A stretch of DNA of 56,544 bases from a virus (Duplodnaviria > Caudoviricetes), in IMG/VR virus record IMGVR_UViG_3300046779_000899, positions 1 to 56,544 of that record; one strand, given 5' to 3'. Of the stretch, positions 13,208 to 56,544 are shown piece after piece. Each line of letters starts with the position of its first letter. Position 1 is the stretch's first letter. A program made the position numbers and the translations under genes. Below the pieces are notes generated by a model. The model ran no database searches. It was not told where the DNA came from and saw only the letters and a list, made by a program, of their open reading frames with translations.

Positions 13208-13518
13208 TGGCTGTAGAACGCAAAGACCGTATGGCTTTGCTTTCTCGCTATAGCAAGCTTCACACTGCTAAGTATAAAGAAAAGCCTTTATTAAATTTAA
13301 ATGTCGAGCAATGGGCTGCTGATGCACTCATTGAGTCGTACGGACTACCATTTTGCTATGACTTGCTAGAGTACTACTTTGATACTGCACAGTCTCCAAC
13401 TTGGAAATACTTTGCCAACTATGCTGATAAGATTGTTGATGCAAGAGAAGACTATAAGAGAGATTTACAAGAGAGGGCCGAGCGTCGCAAGGCAGCAAAG
13501 GCGTGGTTAAATGAATAA
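13207..13518 (+). CDS. Hypothetical protein upstream of helicase (possible loader)
   Basis: Overlaps the dnaB start; function inferred from position only. Confidence 0.55.
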   Translation: MAVERKDRMALLSRYSKLHTAKYKEKPLLNLNVEQWAADALIESYGLPFCYDLLEYYFDTAQSPTWKYFANYADKIVDAREDYKRDLQERAERRKAAKAWLNE

Positions 13519-14731
13519 TACAGAATCAAAACTAATTTCAGCAGTGCTTTCAGACAAGCAGATGCATGTCCTACTTCAGGCTAACGTCGAGACACTATTA
13601 CGTACCCATAACGACATTTGGAACTTTATTCGAAACTATTCAGAGAATAATGGATCAGTTCCACCAGTAAATCTAGTTGTAGAAAAGTTCCGTGACTTTC
13701 AGCCAATACAGGGCGTGGGATCTACCAAGCATCACCTAGAAGAGCTACAGGTAGAATACCTAAACGATAGCCTAAAGGATATCCTTCGATCTGCTGCTGC
13801 AGAAGTGCAGGGTGGCGAAGGCTCAAAGGCCCTAGAAGAGCTAATCACTAAGACATCAGAGCTAAAGAAGAATACCTCAGTTATTCGTGATATTGATGCC
13901 ACTGACCTTGAGTCTGCATTGGCATATTATGAAAACGTACAGAAGCAGAAAGAACTAGGTCAGCTTGGAATTAAGACTGGTCTGGCAGGCTTTGATAACT
14001 ATTTGCCAGCAGGAATTATGCCAGGTCAGCTTGGTGTGTTCCTAGCTTACCCAGGAATTGGTAAGTCGTGGATGGCACTATATTTTGCGGTACAGGCATG
14101 GAAGCAGGGCAAGTCGCCACTAATTATTTCTCTTGAAATGAGCGAGACAGAAGTTCGTAACCGTGTATTTACAATCATGGGTGAGGGACTATGGTCACAC
14201 CGTAAGTTGAGTGATGGACAGATTGACCTAGACGATCTAAAGCGTTGGCACAAGAAGGATCTTGCTGGCAAGCCAGAGTTCCATATTATCTCCAATGATT
14301 CTGGTGGAGAGGTGACTCCATCCGTTATTCGTGGAAAGATTGACCAGTACAAGCCAGATCTCATTATCGTGGACTATCTGCAGCTAATGAGTCCAAACCA
14401 GAAGTCTGACAATGAGACAGTACGCATGAAGAACCTATCTCGTGAACTAAAGCTTCTTGCAATTAGTGAAGAGATTCCAATTATTGCTATCTCGTCAGCT
14501 ACTCCAGATGACGTTAATAAGCTAGACACTGTTCCTACGCTAGGACAGACAGCCTGGTCTCGCCAGATTGCATACGATGCCGACTGGGTCTTAGCATTAG
14601 GTCGTGCGACTAACTCAGATATTATTGAGTGCGTATTCCGCAAGAACCGTAACGGCTTTATGGGTGAGTTTATGGTTCAGGCTGACTTCGACAAGGGCTG
14701 GTACAAATACAAGGACTTTGAAGATAACTAG
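13511..14731 (+). CDS. dnaB: Replicative DnaB-like helicase
   Basis: Walker A AYPGIGKS, ISLEMS, Walker B IIVDYLQLM, IAYDADWV, KNRNG. Confidence 0.95.
   Translation: MNNTESKLISAVLSDKQMHVLLQANVETLLRTHNDIWNFIRNYSENNGSVPPVNLVVEKFRDFQPIQGVGSTKHHLEELQVEYLNDSLKDILRSAAAEVQGGEGSKALEELITKTSELKKNTSVIRDIDATDLESALAYYENVQKQKELGQLGIKTGLAGFDNYLPAGIMPGQLGVFLAYPGIGKSWMALYFAVQAWKQGKSPLIISLEMSETEVRNRVFTIMGEGLWSHRKLSDGQIDLDDLKRWHKKDLAGKPEFHIISNDSGGEVTPSVIRGKIDQYKPDLIIVDYLQLMSPNQKSDNETVRMKNLSRELKLLAISEEIPIIAISSATPDDVNKLDTVPTLGQTAWSRQIAYDADWVLALGRATNSDIIECVFRKNRNGFMGEFMVQADFDKGWYKYKDFEDN

Positions 14732-30313: not shown

Positions 30314-30321
<8 letters not shown>
29920..30321 (+). CDS. nrdI: NrdI flavodoxin
   Basis: [23 protein letters not shown]. 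Confidence 0.95.
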
Positions 30322-33372
<3,051 letters not shown>

Positions 33373-38009: not shown

Positions 38010-38081
38010 TCCCCTTTAGCTCAACGGCAGAGCAGAGAGCTGTTAACTCTAAGGTTCCTGGTTCGAATCCAGGGAGGGGAG
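38010..38081 (+). tRNA. tRNA-Asn(GTT)
   Basis: Full cloverleaf; anticodon loop CTGTTAA; TTCGAAT. Confidence 0.95.
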
Positions 38082-38089
38082 CGATGGAG

Positions 38090-38244
38090 ATTAATCACTT
38101 CATTCGTAGGAGGCACTCTACGTAGAAAGCTGCCAGATGTAAGTATCTATAAACTTACCTCGTGGGGTTAGATCCCCTCAGCGGTTAGTTACCGATGTAG
38201 CAATAACTCAGTAGGTGAGGGAGTGATTTACCCAAGATCCTGCA
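38090..38244 (+). ncRNA. Candidate structured ncRNA A
   Basis: No ORF; closing helix plus internal hairpins and a possible pseudoknot (see findings). Confidence 0.5.
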
Positions 38245-38247
38245 CGG

Positions 38248-38322
38248 AGCGGTATAGAGGAGTTCGGAGTCCTCGTAGGCCTCATAAGCCTGAGATCGCA
38301 GGTTCGAATCCTGCTACCGCAA
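38248..38322 (+). tRNA. tRNA-Met(CAT), initiator-like
   Basis: Anticodon loop CTCATAA; A1/A72 mismatch. Confidence 0.9.
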
Positions 38323-38374
38323 CTAATGGTTCCACCTGCACCACTCTTCGGGTATAAGATAAAAGCAGGTAAAT

Positions 38375-38445
38375 GCGGATATTGCATAAAGGTAGTGCTT
38401 CAGTCTTCCAAACTGATGGTGGGAGTTCGATTCTCCCTATCCGCT
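38375..38445 (+). tRNA. tRNA-Gly(TCC)
   Basis: GCGGATA/TATCCGC acceptor, loop CTTCCAA, U73. Confidence 0.95.
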
Positions 38446-38449
38446 CAAA

Positions 38450-38632
38450 CACAGAAACGACGGTTTCTGTGGAGTATGGCTGAATAATCCTCAGAGTCAA
38501 ATGGGGAGGATAAGGCAACTTGGGGACTAGCGTCCAAGCTTAGCAAGCTAAACTGAGGGTGTGCTCAAAAGCGGATCTTACTGGACCGTATTGACTAGGC
38601 ACTGGTGGTAAAAAGCAATCCACCTACTCACA
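38450..38632 (+). ncRNA. Candidate structured ncRNA C
   Basis: At least six helices, including a pseudoknot. Confidence 0.55.
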
Positions 38633-38639
38633 CTACAGA

Positions 38640-38799
38640 CTTACACCTGCGGTTCGTAACTGTTCAGCACCTCGAAAGAGATCAAGTTGTAAGCTATAAT
38701 AGAATACACCACACTTGGTTAATTAAATCTGAGTACAGGCAATAGGTTATCCATGGTGTATCCGTCAAGGTTTGGTCTCCTGCATTGCAAATACGACCA
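38640..38799 (+). ncRNA. Candidate structured ncRNA segment D
   Basis: Three-way junction with GAAA tetraloop, an 8-bp closed domain and a hairpin. Confidence 0.4.
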
Positions 38800-38865
38800 G
38801 GGCTGTATGGTAACTGAAAGCACTTCAGGTGAAGCCATGTCAAACGGTGCAAATCCGACAGCCCA
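38800..38865 (+). ncRNA. tRNA-like RNA without canonical D/anticodon arms
   Basis: GGGCTGT/ACAGCCC-A acceptor-like stem; CGG-TGCAAAT-CCG T-arm-like hairpin. Confidence 0.55.
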
Positions 38866-38869
38866 CTAT

Positions 38870-38943
38870 GGCTCCATAGCTCAGTTGGTTAGAGCACCAC
38901 CCTGTCACGGTGGGGGTCGTCGGTTCAAGTCCGATTGGAGTCG
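38870..38943 (+). tRNA. tRNA-Asp(GTC)
   Basis: Cloverleaf; loop CTGTCAC; G73. Confidence 0.95.
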
Positions 38944-38959
38944 CTCTTTGTACATTGGT

Positions 38960-39092
38960 CTGAACAACCTAGTACTAAGATCGTTATACTGAAATCTGCA
39001 CCGTGGACGCATCAGGAGACGTGGTTCAGCACAATTGACCTGCTCTGCTAACCCACTAGGTATAACAGCTATCAGCTCTTTGCATGGATAGC
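38960..39092 (+). ncRNA. Candidate multiply pseudoknotted ncRNA F
   Basis: Three mutually crossing 6-bp complementarities plus hairpins. Confidence 0.5.
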
Positions 39093-39096
39093 ACAT

Positions 39097-39170
39097 GCTT
39101 CCTTAGCTCAGTTGGCCAGAGCAATCGCCTTGTAAGCGATAGGTCGTCAGTTCGAACCTGACAGGGAGCT
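39097..39170 (+). tRNA. tRNA-Thr(TGT)
   Basis: Cloverleaf; loop CTTGTAA. Confidence 0.95.
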
Positions 39171-39189
39171 CTCAATAGAAAGTGGGACA

Positions 39190-53714: not shown

Positions 53715-54410
53715 CTAAAGTGCCTTTCTTAGATATATATCGTAGAATCCAATTGGGTGTAATGCAAGTGCATCTACCGACCAATCCTGATTAAAAAATA
53801 AAAACTCGTTTACTGCCTGATATGTTCCATATGGAGCATCCTCAATTACACCATCATAAATTAGATAATCATTTAAACCAATAACTCCACCTGGCTTTAC
53901 CATCTTAGAAGTTTTCTTTAGAACTTCTCTAATCTCTTCTCTACCATTAGTCATGTCAATATAGATATAATCATAGCCAGTTTCATCTGGGAGAATGTAT
54001 GGGGCAAAACCTTTTATAGTTCTAACGTTTCCATATTTAGAAAACAGATCGATAATGTATTGCTCATTTGTTTCTGGGGTAAATAGAAGCTCATGCTTCA
54101 TATTGGTACACTTGCATTCTCCAAACTTTCTCCATGACCAGCACTTTAGATCATTGTTAAAAGGGTCTACTAAAACTATTTCCGATGGGGCTGCCTGCTG
54201 ACAGACAATTTCAGAGTAGTATCCCCAGGCAACACCTATCTCCATATACTTGATACCAGATGGTAGAGTTTTAACGTATTCCTCACGTGAAGAATAGAGC
54301 TTGGCCTTGTCTAGCTGGAACTGAAAGATTGGTCTTGCACTCTCAATATACCCATCATCATTGTCTGGTTTTTCATCGTATTCTAAGAATTTTCCTGGTA
54401 TTTTAGCCAT
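53715..54410 (-). CDS. Class I SAM-dependent methyltransferase (Methyltransf_24-like)
   Basis: MEIGVAWGYYS, LVDPF, YDYIYID, VKPGGVIGLNDY. Confidence 0.85.
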   Translation of the reverse strand: MAKIPGKFLEYDEKPDNDDGYIESARPIFQFQLDKAKLYSSREEYVKTLPSGIKYMEIGVAWGYYSEIVCQQAAPSEIVLVDPFNNDLKCWSWRKFGECKCTNMKHELLFTPETNEQYIIDLFSKYGNVRTIKGFAPYILPDETGYDYIYIDMTNGREEIREVLKKTSKMVKPGGVIGLNDYLIYDGVIEDAPYGTYQAVNEFLFFNQDWSVDALALHPIGFYDIYLRKAL

Positions 54411-54461: not shown

Positions 54462-54911
54462 ATGGAACAATTACTGGCACAACTAAAGCAGCTTCTTGCA
54501 GACAACGTTGCTCTTAAATTTAAGTCACACGGCTACCACTGGAATGTAGAGGGTGATGAGTTTAAGCAATTCCACGAATTTTTCGGAGAAATTTACGAAG
54601 ACTTTGAAGACGCAACTGATACATATGCAGAATGGCTAAGAATCTTTAAGGCATATGCCCCGTACAGACTAACAGATTTCTTTGATATGGCCACAATTTC
54701 TGAACCAGTAATTGTTGGAGATCCACAGCCAATGCTCGCTGACTTGTACATGTCAATGGAAAAGCACATTGAAGACCTAAAGACTGCAGGAAGTCTGGCC
54801 AATGCTGCTCGTGAAAATGGATTGATGGACTTCCTAGCAGCAAGGCAAACAGCAGCACAGAAGTTCTGCTGGATGCTTCGTGTAAGTATGGAAACAGAGG
54901 AGATGGATTAA
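54462..54911 (+). CDS. dps: Dps / ferritin-like DNA-protection protein
   Basis: HGYHWNVEG..F.QFHEFF...D..AE, KFCWML. Confidence 0.92.
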   Translation: MEQLLAQLKQLLADNVALKFKSHGYHWNVEGDEFKQFHEFFGEIYEDFEDATDTYAEWLRIFKAYAPYRLTDFFDMATISEPVIVGDPQPMLADLYMSMEKHIEDLKTAGSLANAARENGLMDFLAARQTAAQKFCWMLRVSMETEEMD

Positions 54912-55633
54912 TGCCAGCAGGACAAGGTAGATACACAATTGGCGGTAAGGGAACTCACGGCTGTGATGGCTACCCAGTGGTCGGGGGAGAAGGCAAGGTC
55001 CACGGATGCCACGCTACTGAAGAGGCAGCTAGAGCACAACAGGCTGCAATTTATGCAAGCCAGAACTCTGAAAAAGCTGACGAGGCCTGTTGCCCAGATG
55101 ATTCTTTAGATAAGGCAGCTCCTTGCTGGGATGGGTACGTACAAAGAGGAATGAAGCCGAAGGATGGCAAGATGGTTCCTAACTGTGTTCCTGCTGAAAA
55201 AGCAGATGATCTGTTTGAGGATTCTGACGATGTTGAGTATGATACCGATTCTGTTATGAAGGCTGATGGATACTCTCCACCTGCTGGAGCACGTTCTGCT
55301 GCACGTCGTGCAATTAAGTTTAAGGAAGATGGCAAGGCTAATGGTGCTGGAACAGCAGTTGGCTGGACACGTGCAAGACAACTTGCTAACGGAGAGACAT
55401 TATCTCTAAGCACAGTCAAGCGTATGTATTCATATTTCTCACGCCACGAGGTAGACAAGAAGGGTAAGGACTGGGGAAACTCAGCCAATCCATCTAATGG
55501 ATACATTATGTGGCTTGCGTGGGGTGGAGATGCAGGATTCTCTTGGTCTAGAAGAATCGTAGAACGAGAAACGGACAAGTCGCTATTTGCTGATTTCGGC
55601 AAAGACTATTCAAAATCTACAAGAATTATTTGA
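54911..55633 (+). CDS. Modular phage protein with short Cys motifs and a W..WGGD.G..WS domain
   Basis: HGCH..EEAA, CWDGYVQRGMKPKDGKMVPNCVP, KRMYSYFSRH, MWLAWGGDAGFSWS. Confidence 0.6.
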   Translation: MPAGQGRYTIGGKGTHGCDGYPVVGGEGKVHGCHATEEAARAQQAAIYASQNSEKADEACCPDDSLDKAAPCWDGYVQRGMKPKDGKMVPNCVPAEKADDLFEDSDDVEYDTDSVMKADGYSPPAGARSAARRAIKFKEDGKANGAGTAVGWTRARQLANGETLSLSTVKRMYSYFSRHEVDKKGKDWGNSANPSNGYIMWLAWGGDAGFSWSRRIVERETDKSLFADFGKDYSKSTRII

Positions 55634-55658
55634 CTCTCAAATAATATTCTGATACAAT
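55630..55658 (+). promoter_or_regulatory. Promoter for tRNA-Glu
   Basis: TTGACT-17-TACAAT with TG extension. Confidence 0.75.
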
Positions 55659-55676
55659 AATTAACCAAAGATTTCT

Positions 55677-55749
55677 GGTCCGTTGGAGTAGTGGTTATCT
55701 CGTCTCCCTTTCAAGGAGAAGATCACGGGTTCGAGCCCCGTACGGACTG
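55677..55749 (+). tRNA. tRNA-Glu(TTC)
   Basis: Cloverleaf; loop CTTTCAA. Confidence 0.93.
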
Positions 55750-55750
55750 C

Positions 55751-55779
55751 TTGCAATTATAATAAAAGTATGATACAAT
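55751..55779 (+). promoter_or_regulatory. Promoter for the leader RNA and second tRNA array
   Basis: TTGCAA-17-TACAAT with TG extension. Confidence 0.7.
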
Positions 55780-55784
55780 AAAAC

Positions 55785-55953
55785 TATGGAGCTAACTATG
55801 AAGTATAACGCACAATCGCATCAGCGATTTAGTTTGGCGTACTCATGGCACAAAGCCAGTCTCCAACCGAGCATCTAATCTAGCTCATTTAAAAAATAGA
55901 TTATCTAAAAAAACAAAATCAAGTAATATAAAACCAGACTAGTTAGCTCCATA
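55785..55953 (+). ncRNA. End-paired leader RNA containing a short ORF (55786 or 55798 to 55878)
   Basis: Perfect 14-nt inverted repeat TATGGAGCTAACTA / TAGTTAGCTCCATA at the two ends. Confidence 0.55.
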
Positions 55954-55957
55954 CTAA

Positions 55958-56028
55958 TCCTCACTGGTGTAGTGGTAGCACAACAGCTTCCAAACCTGTT
56001 GGTCTGAGTTCGATTCTTAGGTGGGGGG
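55958..56028 (+). tRNA. tRNA-Trp(CCA)
   Basis: Loop TTCCAAA; C-C mismatch at the base of the anticodon stem. Confidence 0.85.
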
Positions 56029-56032
56029 CGAT

Positions 56033-56108
56033 CCTGCTATAGCTCAATTGGTAGAGCGTCTGTTTGAAGCACAGAAGGTTCTTGGTTCAATTCCAAGTGG
56101 TAGGGCCA
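56033..56108 (+). tRNA. tRNA-Phe(GAA)
   Basis: Loop TTGAAGC; encoded CCA. Confidence 0.92.
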
Positions 56109-56109
56109 G

Positions 56110-56181
56110 ACCAATATAGCTCAACGGAAGAGCACTTGCCTACGAAGCAAGTGGTTGAAGGTTCGAATCCTTCTATTGGTA
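56110..56181 (+). tRNA. tRNA-Arg(ACG)
   Basis: Loop CTACGAA. Confidence 0.93.
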
Positions 56182-56186
56182 CTCTA

Positions 56187-56266
56187 CCCTCGTAGTCCCC
56201 AAGGTGGGGAAGCGGTCTGTAAAACCGTCGCCTACGGCATGGTTGGTTCGATTCCAACACGGGGGA
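56187..56266 (+). tRNA. tRNA-Tyr(GTA)
   Basis: Loop CTGTAAA; long variable arm. Confidence 0.9.
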
Positions 56267-56268
56267 CT

Positions 56269-56342
56269 GTGGCACTAGTTCAATGGTAGAACGCTTGGTT
56301 GTGGTCCAAGGAATGAGGGTTCAATTCCCTCGTGTCACCCCA
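56269..56342 (+). tRNA. tRNA-His(GTG)
   Basis: Loop TTGTGGT; C73; encoded CCA. Confidence 0.93.
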
Positions 56343-56415
56343 GGGTCTTTAGCTCAATTGGGAGAGCATCTGGTTTGCAGCCAGAAGGTTAGGAGTTCGA
56401 TTCTCCTAAGATCCA
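56343..56415 (+). tRNA. tRNA-Ala(TGC)
   Basis: Loop TTTGCAG; G3-U70. Confidence 0.95.
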
Positions 56416-56416
56416 C

Positions 56417-56501
56417 GGAAGGTTGCCAGAGTGGACTAATGGACCAGTCTTGAAAACTGTCAGGTGTAACAGCCTCATGGGTTCGAATCCCATACCTTCC
56501 T
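56417..56501 (+). tRNA. tRNA-Ser(TGA)
   Basis: Loop CTTGAAA; long variable arm. Confidence 0.93.
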
Positions 56502-56503
56502 CC

Positions 56504-56544
56504 GCTTCTCTAGTCCAACGGTAGAGACATCAGCTTCAAACACT
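56504..56544 (+). tRNA. tRNA-Leu(CAA), 5' part only (cut by window end)
   Basis: GCTTCTC-TA-GTC...GAC-A-TCAGC-TTCAAAC-ACT. Confidence 0.6.

What the first reader, a model, noticed from the sequence alone, without database searches (positions are those of the whole stretch)
55751..55957. End-paired leader RNA with a short peptide ORF ahead of the tRNA array
Seen: a promoter, then TATGGAGCTAACTA (55785-55798) perfectly complementary to TAGTTAGCTCCATA (55940-55953), which ends 4 nt before tRNA-Trp. The helix buries both the leaderless ATG and the GGAG of ORF (MELT)MKYNAQSHQRFSLAYSWHKASLQPSI. Other helices: AATCGC/GCGATT, TAGTTTGG/CCAGACTA, TAATCTA/TAGATTA. The peptide contains W, F, R, Y, H, A, S and L, every amino acid served by the tRNAs visible downstream. 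Inference: a translation-coupled sensor of host tRNA depletion controlling the array; alternatives are a type I toxin-like mRNA or a 6S-like RNA released by RNase P.
Basis: partly seen in the sequence, partly recalled or inferred. Interest (0 to 1): 0.7.

Follow-up and report, generated by a model that had tools for sequence, protein, structure and literature searches.

The report
Codon-sampling leader ORF before phage tRNAs
In an uncultured freshwater phage, a short conserved gene and folded RNA sit in front of a row of tRNA genes, and the short gene uses at least one codon for almost every tRNA that follows, which suggests a built-in gauge of tRNA supply that has not been described for tRNA genes.

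Summary
Window 55751-55957 is the spacer between tRNA-Glu and tRNA-Trp. It holds an extended -10 promoter, a 30-codon ORF with GGAG and two in-frame ATGs at the predicted 5' end, and a perfect 14-bp helix that joins that end to a site 4 nt before tRNA-Trp.

I found 20 relatives: 10 IMG/VR contigs and 10 metagenome contigs. The ORF is open in 21 of 21 loci, and third codon positions change about twice as often as first or second. The terminal helix is present in 13 of 21 loci, with a C-G to U-A swap and G-U pairs. It is absent in the other 8. Three inner helices also covary.

The key result is that 153 of 156 downstream tRNA genes have a cognate codon in the leader ORF. Random same-length windows of the phage's own genes match this in 12 of 12,574 cases for the window, and in 0 of 12,539 for two larger arrays.

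There is no Rfam, Pfam, PHROG or NCBIfam match, no intrinsic terminator, and no direct evidence of translation or regulation.

Best reading, at about 50%: a translation-coupled leader that gauges decoding capacity for the array's own tRNAs. The type I toxin, 6S-like and mobile-element readings are not supported.

The parts
55630..55658 (+). Upstream promoter-like site (TTGACT-17-TACAAT, TG extension) that serves tRNA-Glu. Transcripts from it would read through into the leader.
55677..55750 (+). tRNA-Glu(ttc), directly upstream of the leader unit
55751..55779 (+). Leader promoter: -35 TTGCAA (55751-55756), TG (55771-55772), -10 TACAAT (55774-55779). The -10 box with its TG lies exactly 6 nt before the first ATG in 21 of 21 family members.
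55785..55798 (+). 5' arm of terminal helix P1. It holds the predicted transcript start (55785/55786), the first ATG (55786), GGAG (55788-55791) and the first base of the second ATG (55798-55800).
   Evidence: Two RNA-library contigs begin at 55785/55786, which is only a weak hint.
55786..55878 (+). Leader ORF: 30 codons from the first ATG, 26 from the second (which has the GGAG at 6 nt), stop TAA at 55876-55878. It holds at least one cognate codon for all 7 complete tRNA genes visible downstream.
55815..55828 (+). Hairpin P2 (ATCGC/GCGAT, loop ATCA) inside the ORF. Two of its pairs show changes on both sides.
55834..55866 (+). Helix P3 inside the ORF (TTGG..ACT..GGC / GCC..AGT..CCAA). The loop covers the most variable codons. 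It includes CTCCA (55861-55865), which can alternatively pair with TGGAG at the 5' end.
55869..55903 (+). P4 (GAGC 55869-55872 / GCTC 55883-55886) plus a possible pseudoknot arm pair TAATCTA (55876-55882, holds the stop codon) / TAGATTA (55897-55903)
55879..55939 (+). A-rich, G-poor linker that shows no conserved pairing apart from P4 and the pseudoknot arms, ending in the conserved ACCA(A/G) motif. Over all distinct linkers G is 4.7% and C 18.8%, against 22.4% and 18.8% for the window.
55940..55953 (+). 3' arm of terminal helix P1; 4 nt (CTAA, 55954-55957) separate it from tRNA-Trp
55958..56544 (+). tRNA array: Trp(cca), Phe(gaa), Arg(acg), Tyr(gta), His(gtg), Ala(tgc), Ser(tga), then the first 41 nt of a 74-nt-type tRNA with anticodon CAA, cut by the contig end

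Best explanation
The spacer is a self-contained leader unit for the tRNA array that begins with tRNA-Trp.

Anatomy:
- An extended -10 promoter fires about 6 nt before an ATG. The transcript therefore begins (U)AUGGAG...AUG, with the Shine-Dalgarno sequence and two in-frame starts at its very 5' end.
- A ribosome can load only while the RNA is still being made. About 150 nt later a distal arm is transcribed that locks the 5' end, the GGAG and both AUGs into a 12-15 bp helix (P1) ending 4-6 nt before tRNA-Trp.
- In the short form that lacks this arm, CUCCA inside the ORF can pair with UGGAG instead.
- The 26-33 codon ORF holds at least one codon for almost every tRNA species encoded behind it. 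It is overlaid by helices P2-P4, whose pairs covary at synonymous sites. A G-poor linker follows.

Inferred mechanism: the transit time of the first ribosome is set by the supply of exactly these tRNAs, whether host or phage. That time decides whether the 5' arm is free when its partner emerges, and whether the linker is covered or bare. This in turn sets how much array RNA is completed, processed by RNase P or kept stable. The unit would work as a leader-peptide style gauge with an 'any of these tRNAs' logic.

Shown: the promoter motif and its fixed spacing, ORF conservation, the RNA helices and the codon-to-tRNA match.
Inferred: translation, the start site, any effect on array output, and the sign of that effect.
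For: 1. The unit stays with the array. In L102/L046 and L086 other sequence lies between tRNA-Glu and the promoter (two ORFs of 297 and 251 aa in L046), yet promoter, ORF and tRNA-Trp remain joined. The -10 box with TG lies 6 nt before the ATG in 21 of 21 loci.

2. Coding signature.
- The frame is open in 21 of 21 loci (17 distinct ORF sequences). Both other frames hold stops in 17 of 17.
- Minimum changes by codon position are 19/17/33.
- Seven codon columns vary only synonymously.
- The stop codon changes from TAA to TGA in L105.
- The ORF length difference in the nucleotide alignment is a 3-nt gap, whereas the linker has 1- and 2-nt gaps.

3. Codon sampling.
- 153 of 156 array tRNA genes have a cognate codon under strict wobble, and 142 of 143 amino-acid types are covered, over all 21 loci.
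- Random windows of the same length from this phage's genes do as well in 12 of 12,574 cases (window, 7 of 7 anticodons), 0 of 12,539 (L092, 16 of 17), 0 of 12,539 (L117, 14 of 14) and 9 of 12,539 (L086, 8 of 8).
- The peptide residues are mostly from the array's amino-acid set, for example 15 of 25 against 31% expected for the window and 19 of 25 against 29% for L108.

4. Changes run together.
- His is missing from the peptide only in L108 and L111, the only two complete arrays without tRNA-His. In peptide sequence L111 differs from L115 by H to D alone.
- F, P and V appear in the peptide together with tRNA-Phe, tRNA-Pro and tRNA-Val.
- No tRNA type lacks its residue in 11 of 11 complete distinct loci. 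Only 1 of 50,000 reshufflings of arrays among loci gives that result, and 2 of 120 within group A.

5. RNA structure.
- 98.4% of cells are paired, against 25-38% when the partners are slid.
- The covariation score is reached by 0 of 500 shuffles.
- Five pairs show changes on both sides, among them P1 8/173 (CG:6, UA:6) and P4 91/102 (CG:5, UA:5, UG:2).

6. The direction of the match fits a gauge. The array is a subset of the peptide, while the peptide is not a subset of the array.

7. Leader-like sequence is present in contigs of three freshwater RNA libraries from three studies, and two contigs of one run start at 55785/55786. This is a weak hint only.
Against: - No intrinsic terminator lies between the ORF and tRNA-Trp, so the regulated step is unknown.
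- P1 is absent in 8 of 21 loci, where the best end-to-end duplex is only -3.1 to -6.7 kcal/mol. The group-B consensus fold shows no covariation.
- Three related arrays join tRNA-Glu to tRNA-Trp by 4 nt with no leader (L005, L007, L014). The unit is therefore dispensable.
- Codons occur once each rather than in runs, which in classical attenuators gives weak sensitivity.
- Three tRNA genes have no cognate codon in the ORF: tRNA-Phe in L120, the CAA tRNA in L092 and tRNA-Arg(tct) in L121.
- The phylogeny-aware test has too few contrasts. His gave 2 pairs the same way. Phe gave 1 the same way and 1 tie. Pro gave 1 pair, the same way in about 60% of pairings and otherwise a tie. Val gave 1 the same way. 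None ran the opposite way, but this is below the 6 pairs needed for p<0.05, and the tree kept the trait's own columns.
- Within group B, 120 of 720 permutations also give no violation.
- In the conserved codon block, third-position enrichment is only p=0.045.
- The ORF uses codons that are rare in this phage (TCG 0.05, CGA 0.06, GCG 0.03, CTC 0.04, CCG 0.04). That could simply reflect stem constraints.
- The loci are related, so the per-locus p-values are not independent.
- Contigs cannot prove transcription, RNA ends or strand. In run X16 the contigs extend upstream of the proposed start.
Confidence: 0.5

Rival explanations
1. The ORF is an ordinary small phage protein gene carried with its own promoter in the tRNA cluster, and its mRNA is stabilised and silenced by 5'-3' pairing. 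The codon match exists because the peptide has to be made when host tRNAs are scarce. On this reading it is a client of the array, not a sensor.
For: - The ORF has a coding signature and conserved SLAYSW and ASL motifs.
- It has its own promoter.
- It is present in some related arrays and absent in others, as accessory genes often are.
- No terminator or other obvious regulatory output is seen.
Against: - A client should use only codons that the phage can read. Here the array is a subset of the peptide and not the reverse: in small-array phages many residues (K, N, I, A, S, L) have no tRNA in the array.
- The ORF uses codons that are rare in phage genes.
- The unit is always fused to tRNA-Trp at a short distance.
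- The peptide matches no protein family, and no genuine relative appears among 1.84 billion representative proteins.
Confidence: 0.2
2. The element is a structured non-coding RNA of about 170 nt, released from the array precursor by RNase P and acting as a stable small RNA or processing scaffold. The open frame is incidental.
For: - Helices P1-P4 show covariation.
- The most variable 'codons' fall in hairpin loops.
- Codon usage is atypical for the phage.
- Another structured RNA sits among tRNAs in this same phage (manA motif at 38453-38634).
Against: - The frame is open in 21 of 21 loci, while both other frames are closed in 17 of 17 distinct sequences.
- Third positions change twice as often as first or second.
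- The stop codon is kept through a TAA to TGA change.
- GGAG lies 6 nt before an ATG in every member.
- A codon-to-anticodon match of 153 of 156 has no meaning for an untranslated RNA.
- No Rfam family matches.
Confidence: 0.12
3. The element is a type I toxin-like mRNA (hok type), held inactive by 5'-3' fold-back pairing.
For: Long-range pairing buries the start site in 13 of 21 loci.
Against: - The peptide is hydrophilic: GRAVY is -0.60 and -0.85, and the best 11-residue window is -0.05, so there is no membrane segment.
- No promoter-like site on the minus strand lies inside 55751-55957.
- The helix is absent in 8 of 21 loci.
Confidence: 0.03
4. The element is a remnant of a small mobile insertion with 14-bp terminal inverted repeats.
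For: The element is present in some related arrays and absent in others, and the window copy has perfect inverted ends.
Against: - There is one copy per record, always at the same place.
- The arms stay complementary through G-U pairs, which pair only in RNA.
- Eight members lack one arm.
- No flanking duplication is evident in the spacer sequences.
Confidence: 0.03

Closest known systems
Ribosome-mediated attenuator leaders of amino-acid operons (trpL, hisL, pheL, thrL, leuL; pheM of pheST). Named from my own knowledge; for pheL I saw only the listing and abstract of PMC3082878.
   Same: A short ORF with its own Shine-Dalgarno sequence lies directly behind the promoter and ahead of the genes served. 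Its codons are chosen for the tRNAs that matter to those genes. Conserved helices overlap the ORF. Only the first ribosome on each transcript can matter.
   Different: - Each of many codon types occurs once, instead of a run of one codon.
- There is no GC hairpin with a U tract.
- The downstream genes are tRNAs rather than enzymes.
- It is phage-borne.
- The output is unknown.
Leader ORFs that control Rho-dependent termination (tnaC, mgtL type; recalled, not tested)
   Same: A leader ORF is followed by a G-poor spacer that retains C, ahead of the first gene. The spacer's C:G ratio is about 4:1.
   Different: Rho dependence cannot be tested here. The spacer is mainly A-rich and, apart from keeping C, has no recognisable Rho-entry site.
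hok-type type I toxin mRNAs with fold-back inhibition (recalled)
   Same: The 5' end pairs with the 3' end and hides the translation start.
   Different: The peptide is hydrophilic, there is no sign of an antisense RNA, and the helix is missing in 8 of 21 members.
Structured RNAs lodged among phage tRNA genes. The manA motif is found in this window (passages of PMC2864571 read). T4 stable RNAs C and D, and GOLLD/ROOL RNAs near tRNAs, are recalled; for PMC12286853 I saw the listing only.
   Same: They lie between tRNA genes and would be cut out by the tRNA processing enzymes.
   Different: This element carries a conserved, probably translated ORF and matches none of the 4227 Rfam models.
T-box leaders
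   Same: They report on tRNA status in cis.
   Different: A T-box binds one tRNA directly through a specifier codon without translation. No T-box model matches here.

Membership tests
Ribosome-mediated transcription attenuator (trpL/hisL type) | A short ORF with its own ribosome-binding site between the promoter and the first downstream gene | tested here: met
   GGAG lies 6 nt before the second ATG. The ORF is 26-33 codons and present in 21 of 21 loci.
Ribosome-mediated transcription attenuator (trpL/hisL type) | A run or cluster of codons for the one amino acid being sensed | tested here: not met
   There is no run. Instead there are single codons of 14-15 amino-acid types that cover 153 of 156 array tRNA genes.
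Ribosome-mediated transcription attenuator (trpL/hisL type) | Mutually exclusive helices that overlap the ORF | tested here: inconclusive
   P1-P4 are supported. The alternative pairings UGGAG:CUCCA and UUGG:ACCAA exist on paper, but without covariation.
Ribosome-mediated transcription attenuator (trpL/hisL type) | An intrinsic terminator (GC-rich hairpin followed by a U tract) before the first gene | tested here: not met
   No terminator-like site on the + strand in 55600-56544.
Rho-dependent leader-ORF switch (tnaC/mgtL type) | A G-poor spacer that retains C, behind the ORF | tested here: met
   The linker has G 4.7% and C 18.8%, against 22.4% and 18.8% for the window. Group-B linkers have no G at all.
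Rho-dependent leader-ORF switch (tnaC/mgtL type) | Termination that depends on Rho | not testable with these tools
   This needs in vitro transcription with Rho, or a Rho inhibitor in vivo.
Type I toxin mRNA (hok type) | A small hydrophobic membrane peptide | tested here: not met
   GRAVY -0.60 and -0.85; best 11-residue window -0.05.
Type I toxin mRNA (hok type) | 5'-3' fold-back that hides the start site | tested here: met
   Present in 13 of 21 loci at -17.6 to -22.0 kcal/mol.
Type I toxin mRNA (hok type) | An overlapping antisense RNA gene | tested here: not met
   The consensus scan finds no minus-strand promoter-like site within 55751-55957. This is a weak test.
6S RNA | Match to the 6S covariance model (long closing helix with a central bubble) | tested here: not met
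   No 6S match, even at E up to 10.
T-box leader | Match to the T-box model (specifier loop, T-box sequence) | tested here: not met
   No match at E up to 10.
Miniature inverted-repeat mobile element | Several copies per genome, with terminal inverted repeats and target duplications | tested here: not met
   There is a single match in the record. The arms are kept complementary through G-U pairs. One arm is missing in 8 of 21 members.

The most novel reading that the evidence does not exclude
The leader ORF is a codon sampler: one test codon for each tRNA that the array can supply. If any one of the matching host tRNAs is lost, for example through an anticodon nuclease of a defence system or through decay of host tRNA during infection, the first ribosome stalls. 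The stall keeps the 5' arm from closing and changes access to the linker, and array output rises. That would be the first attenuation-type control of tRNA genes, and the first phage-encoded sensor of tRNA-targeting immunity, working as an OR gate over up to 17 tRNA species.
Probability: 0.25. Interest if true: 0.92.

Novelty: new variant of a known kind. Interest (0 to 1): 0.8.

Why it matters
Phage tRNA arrays are now seen as countermeasures to host tRNA loss and tRNA-cleaving defence systems (listings and abstracts of PMC10264068 and PMC11464382). How phages control these arrays is essentially unknown.

A leader ORF whose codons mirror the tRNA genes behind it, and shift with them across relatives, would extend leader-peptide sensing from amino-acid operons to tRNA genes. 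It also gives a concrete construct of about 170 nt on which the question can be tested.

In six full-text searches (listings and abstracts only) I found no description of a leader peptide ahead of a tRNA array. Subscription journals and supplementary files were not searchable.

Tried and rejected
- **Rfam.** Only tRNAs match in 55400-56544, even at E up to 10. At gathering threshold the whole window gives tRNAs plus one manA motif elsewhere.
- **Public phage records.** The blastn search with 55600-56100 against 50,697 records hit only tRNA-Glu look-alikes, in 209 records. The tblastn search with the neighbouring 240-aa protein found only partial matches in 34 records, none covering 80% of the query. 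No cultured relative or host is known.
- **Profile search of 1.84 billion representative proteins.** It gave one hit, a 966-aa repetitive protein matched in 11 weak stretches. I read this as spurious, so gene callers have apparently not recorded this ORF.
- **Protein family libraries.** Pfam, PHROGs and NCBIfam gave no family. DUF6527 at E=0.023 is below its cut-off.
- **Pattern scans.**
  - 18 of the 28 hits to the 18-mer were chance.
  - 5 of 15 metagenome hits were chance.
  - 5 of 5 hits in bacterial and archaeal genomes were chance.
- **More distant members.** nhmmer with the ORF alignment over the 80 loci found only the three already known. The peptide-profile scan of IMG/VR returned the same 10 contigs.
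- **Other arrays.** The Met-Ile-Leu-Arg arrays of the same phages have no comparable leader.
- **Truncated arrays.** The metagenome records behind L110, L123 and L119 are not held, so their arrays could not be completed.
- **Misfolding idea.** Folding the 3' part together with tRNA-Trp gave a non-cloverleaf structure with z-score 0.01. I drew nothing from it.
- **Promoter word.** TATGNTACAAT is not enriched in the window: 11 matches against 7.2 expected.
- **RNA libraries.** Parts of the stretch had no contig cover in some runs, which proves nothing.
Full report
**What is there**

The window is an IMG/VR virus contig of 56,544 bases, estimated 49% complete. DNA runs that hold the stretch are labelled freshwater or aquatic metagenomes.

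ARAGORN and Rfam place tRNA-Glu(ttc) at 55677-55750 and tRNA-Trp(cca) at 55958-56029. Phe, Arg, Tyr, His, Ala and Ser follow, then a tRNA cut off by the contig end. The finding is therefore the 207-nt spacer between tRNA-Glu and tRNA-Trp.

The spacer holds the following.
- A promoter-like site, TTGCAA-17-TACAAT with a TG extension, at 55751-55779.
- The ORF 55786-55878, MELTMKYNAQSHQRFSLAYSWHKASLQPSI.
- GGAG at 55788-55791, which lies 6 nt before a second in-frame ATG at 55798.
- The perfect 14-bp pairing 55785-55798 with 55940-55953, which ends 4 nt before tRNA-Trp.

The pairing is not a chance feature. It is the longest perfect inverted repeat within 300 nt in the whole window, one of only 3 pairs found. 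The spacer folds far better than shuffles, with z-scores of -5.1 and -5.7 and 0 of 200 shuffles as stable.

A second promoter-like site at 55630-55658 serves tRNA-Glu. No terminator-like site lies on the + strand between 55600 and the contig end.

**Relatives**

- Of 80 IMG/VR loci that encode a relative of the neighbouring 240-aa protein, 3 hold the spacer element (L006, L022, L046). Three others join tRNA-Glu to tRNA-Trp by only 4 nt and have no such element (L005, L007, L014).
- Pattern scans of IMG/VR gave 10 true loci. These were 10 of 28 hits for the 18-mer, the rest being chance. Two other patterns and a peptide-profile scan returned the same 10.
- One scan of metagenome contigs gave 10 more true loci out of 15 hits.
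- A scan of 185,579 species genomes gave 5 hits, all chance.

The family held here is thus 21 loci, with 20 distinct leader sequences. It has two forms.
- **Group A**: 13 loci including the window, 170-184 nt from the ATG to tRNA-Trp, with the distal arm.
- **Group B**: 8 loci, 131-136 nt, without it.

In L102/L046 two ORFs of 297 and 251 aa lie between tRNA-Glu and the element. L086 has the same upstream sequence. In both cases promoter, ORF and tRNA-Trp stay joined. The unit therefore belongs to the Trp-headed array, not to tRNA-Glu.

**Promoter and start**

A TG-extended -10 box (TAYAMT) lies exactly 6 nt before the first ATG in 21 of 21 loci. This predicts a transcript that starts at or next to that ATG.

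Two contigs of one freshwater RNA library begin at 55785/55786 and run through the leader into tRNA-Trp. In another RNA library the contigs extend upstream. Contigs cannot prove RNA ends, and DNA may be present in such libraries. This is a hint only.

**Is the ORF coding?**

- The frame is open in all 21 loci (17 distinct ORF sequences). Both other frames are closed in 17 of 17.
- Minimum changes per codon position are 19/17/33.
- Seven codon columns (S, L, A, S, A, S, S) vary only synonymously.
- L105 changes the stop codon from TAA to TGA.
- The only length difference inside the ORF in the group-A nucleotide alignment is 3 nt, whereas the linker has 1- and 2-nt gaps.
- In the conserved block, 6 of 10 variable columns are third positions (p=0.045).

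Taken alone this is moderate evidence. Two points weigh against it: the ORF uses codons that are rare in this phage's genes (TCG 0.05, CGA 0.06, GCG 0.03, CTC 0.04, CCG 0.04), and the most variable codons lie in hairpin loops.

The first 18 nt, ATGGAGNTAACTATGAAG, never vary at synonymous sites. That fits a role as ribosome-binding site and helix arm, and a start at the second ATG.

**RNA structure**

For the 12 distinct group-A sequences, RNAalifold gives four helices.
- P1, the terminal helix, 12 pairs.
- P2, AUCGC/GCGAU.
- P3, over the codons for LAYSW...ASLQ.
- P4, GAGC/GCUC.

- 98.4% of cells pair, against 25-38% when the partners are slid by 1-3 columns.
- The covariation score is reached by 0 of 500 shuffles.
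- Five pairs change on both sides: P1 8/173 (CG:6, UA:6), P2 34/47 and 38/43, P3 53/85, and P4 91/102 (CG:5, UA:5, UG:2).
- Several of these changes are synonymous in the ORF and are matched by a change outside it.

TAATCTA, which holds the stop codon and lies in the P4 loop, can pair with TAGATTA downstream to form an H-type pseudoknot. This is 95% paired. L086 and L113 have GTAAC/GTTAC there instead.

P1 is -17.6 to -22.0 kcal/mol in 13 of 13 group-A loci. The same ends give only -3.1 to -6.7 in 8 of 8 group-B loci. In group B the consensus fold instead pairs UGGAG at the 5' end with the invariant CUCCA inside the ORF, without covariation.

The linker between the stop codon and tRNA-Trp is A-rich and nearly free of G: 4.7% G and 18.8% C, against 22.4% and 18.8% in the window, and no G at all in group B.

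**The codon-to-tRNA match**

The count below leaves out ARAGORN's three undetermined '???' genes, in L086, L095 and L102.
- Over all 21 loci, 153 of 156 tRNA genes in the array directly behind the leader have at least one cognate codon in the ORF (strict wobble, counting from the second ATG).
- 142 of 143 amino-acid types are present.
- The misses are tRNA-Phe in L120 (a 1,084-nt contig), the CAA tRNA in L092 and tRNA-Arg(tct) in L121.

Windows of the same length from this phage's own genes, each given an ATG, do as well as follows.

| Locus | Anticodons covered by the leader ORF | Random windows that do as well |
|---|---|---|
| window | 7 of 7 | 12 of 12,574 |
| L092 | 16 of 17 | 0 of 12,539 |
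| L117 | 14 of 14 | 0 of 12,539 |
| L121 | 11 of 12 | 8 of 12,539 |
| L086 | 8 of 8 | 9 of 12,539 |
| smallest arrays (4-5 anticodons) | all | 195-296 of 12,469 |

At the amino-acid level the figures are weaker: 0.019 for the window and 0.0012 for L092.

The peptide is built mainly from the array's amino acids. Examples are 15 of 25 residues against 31% expected for the window, 19 of 25 against 29% for L108, and 25 of 26 against 66% for L092.

These loci are related, so the p-values are not independent.

**Do peptide and array change together?**

- In 11 of 11 complete, distinct loci no array tRNA type lacks its residue.
- Reshuffling arrays among loci reaches that result in 1 of 50,000 trials. 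Within group A it is 2 of 120 permutations, both equal to the true assignment. Within group B it is 120 of 720.
- His is absent from the peptide only in L108 (group A) and L111 (group B). These are the only complete arrays without tRNA-His. The peptide of L111 differs from that of L115 by H to D alone.
- The residue after the invariant Arg is F where tRNA-Phe follows tRNA-Trp, P in L086 and L113 where tRNA-Pro does, and S or Y elsewhere. L120 is the one exception.
- V appears only in the clade that has tRNA-Val.
- A tree-based count of independent pairs gives the following.
  - His: 2 pairs the same way.
  - Phe: 1 the same way and 1 tie.
  - Pro: 1 pair, the same way in about 60% of pairings and otherwise a tie.
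  - Val: 1 the same way.
  - None runs the opposite way. This is too few for significance, and the tree kept the trait columns.

The inclusion runs one way only. The array is a subset of the peptide, while the peptide holds residues (N, K, I, and in small-array phages A, S, L) with no tRNA in the array.

**Reading**

The element combines five things:
- a promoter at a fixed distance;
- a ribosome-binding site and start at the very 5' end;
- a conserved short ORF;
- conserved helices that overlap the ORF;
- a tight physical link to the first tRNA gene.

This is the anatomy of a leader-peptide regulator. Because P1 (or CUCCA in group B) can close over the start site once it is transcribed, only a ribosome that loads during transcription can read the ORF. 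That is the situation in which ribosome speed can steer RNA folding.

The codon content says what that speed would report: the supply of the same tRNA species that the array encodes. I therefore favour a translation-coupled gauge that tunes completion, processing or stability of the array transcript (about 50%).

The output step and its sign are inferred and not shown. There is no intrinsic terminator. The candidates are Rho entry on the G-poor linker, RNase P access to a tRNA-Trp 5' leader that is either single-stranded or held in P1, and protection of the leader RNA's ends.

**Rivals**

- A stand-alone small protein gene whose codons fit the phage tRNA set, about 20%. The direction of inclusion and the rare codons argue against it.
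- A non-coding structured RNA with an incidental frame, about 12%. The frame conservation and the codon match argue against it.
- A type I toxin-like mRNA, about 3%. The peptide is hydrophilic (GRAVY -0.60).
- A mobile-element remnant, about 3%. There is a single copy, and the G-U pairs work only in RNA.

**Known relatives**

- No Rfam family other than tRNA matches.
- No Pfam, PHROG or NCBIfam family matches.
- A profile search of 1.84 billion representative proteins found only a spurious repetitive protein.
- Six literature searches returned nothing on a leader peptide ahead of a tRNA operon or phage tRNA array (listings and abstracts only).
- I read passages of one paper, PMC2864571, for the manA motif.

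**Verdict**

The element is best filed as a new variant of leader-peptide control, attached to tRNA genes. Translation and regulation remain to be shown.

Noticed in passing
window 38453-38634 (+): A manA RNA motif (RF01745, 72.1 bits against a gathering score of 55.2) lies between tRNA-Gly and tRNA-Asp in the first tRNA cluster (38010-39171). The describing paper reports manA mainly in marine metagenomes and in T4-like cyanophages (passages of PMC2864571). Here it sits among the tRNAs of a freshwater phage.
   Followed up: partly
window 38083-38247, 38635-38869, 38945-39096 (+): The first tRNA cluster has further long spacers with no Rfam match at E up to 0.1. Their folds are not better than shuffles, with z-scores of -1.6, +0.2 and -0.8 for 150-nt pieces. 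The spacer after tRNA-Asn begins ATGGAGAT at 38084, like the first 8 nt of the group-B leaders, and opens a 13-codon frame (sequence).
   Followed up: partly
window 56504-56544; L121 908-981; L092 2089-2162; L095 9824-9897 and 10108-10181; L086 2131-2204: tRNA genes with anticodon CAA that ARAGORN calls Leu are only 74 nt long. They therefore lack the long variable arm that bacterial tRNA-Leu has (the arm is recalled). The window ends inside one of them. Their amino-acid identity is open.
   Followed up: no
L022 5797-5888, L046 8319-8411; also seen in L086, L095 and L102: ARAGORN reports tRNA-like genes of about 92 nt with an undetermined two-letter anticodon '(at)' inside the arrays. I left them out of the codon counts.
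   Followed up: no
L046 6115-7756 (same contig as L102): Two ORFs of 297 and 251 aa lie between tRNA-Glu and the leader promoter. From their N-terminal glycine-rich motifs they look like sugar-nucleotide enzymes. That is my own reading and was not tested.
   Followed up: no
L005 6363-6366, L007 5177-5180, L014 6363-6366: Related phages join tRNA-Glu and tRNA-Trp by 4 nt with no leader. Their tRNA-Trp has a different 5' sequence from the tRNA-Trp that follows the leader.
   Followed up: partly
window 54462-54911 (+), 53715-54410 (-), 30314-32428 (+), 13511-14731 (+): Neighbouring genes are a ferritin-like (Dps-type) protein, a weak methyltransferase match below its cut-off, the large subunit of class I ribonucleotide reductase, and a DnaB-like helicase. 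The 240-aa protein just upstream of tRNA-Glu has no Pfam family, but at least 597 relatives in IMG/VR.
   Followed up: no
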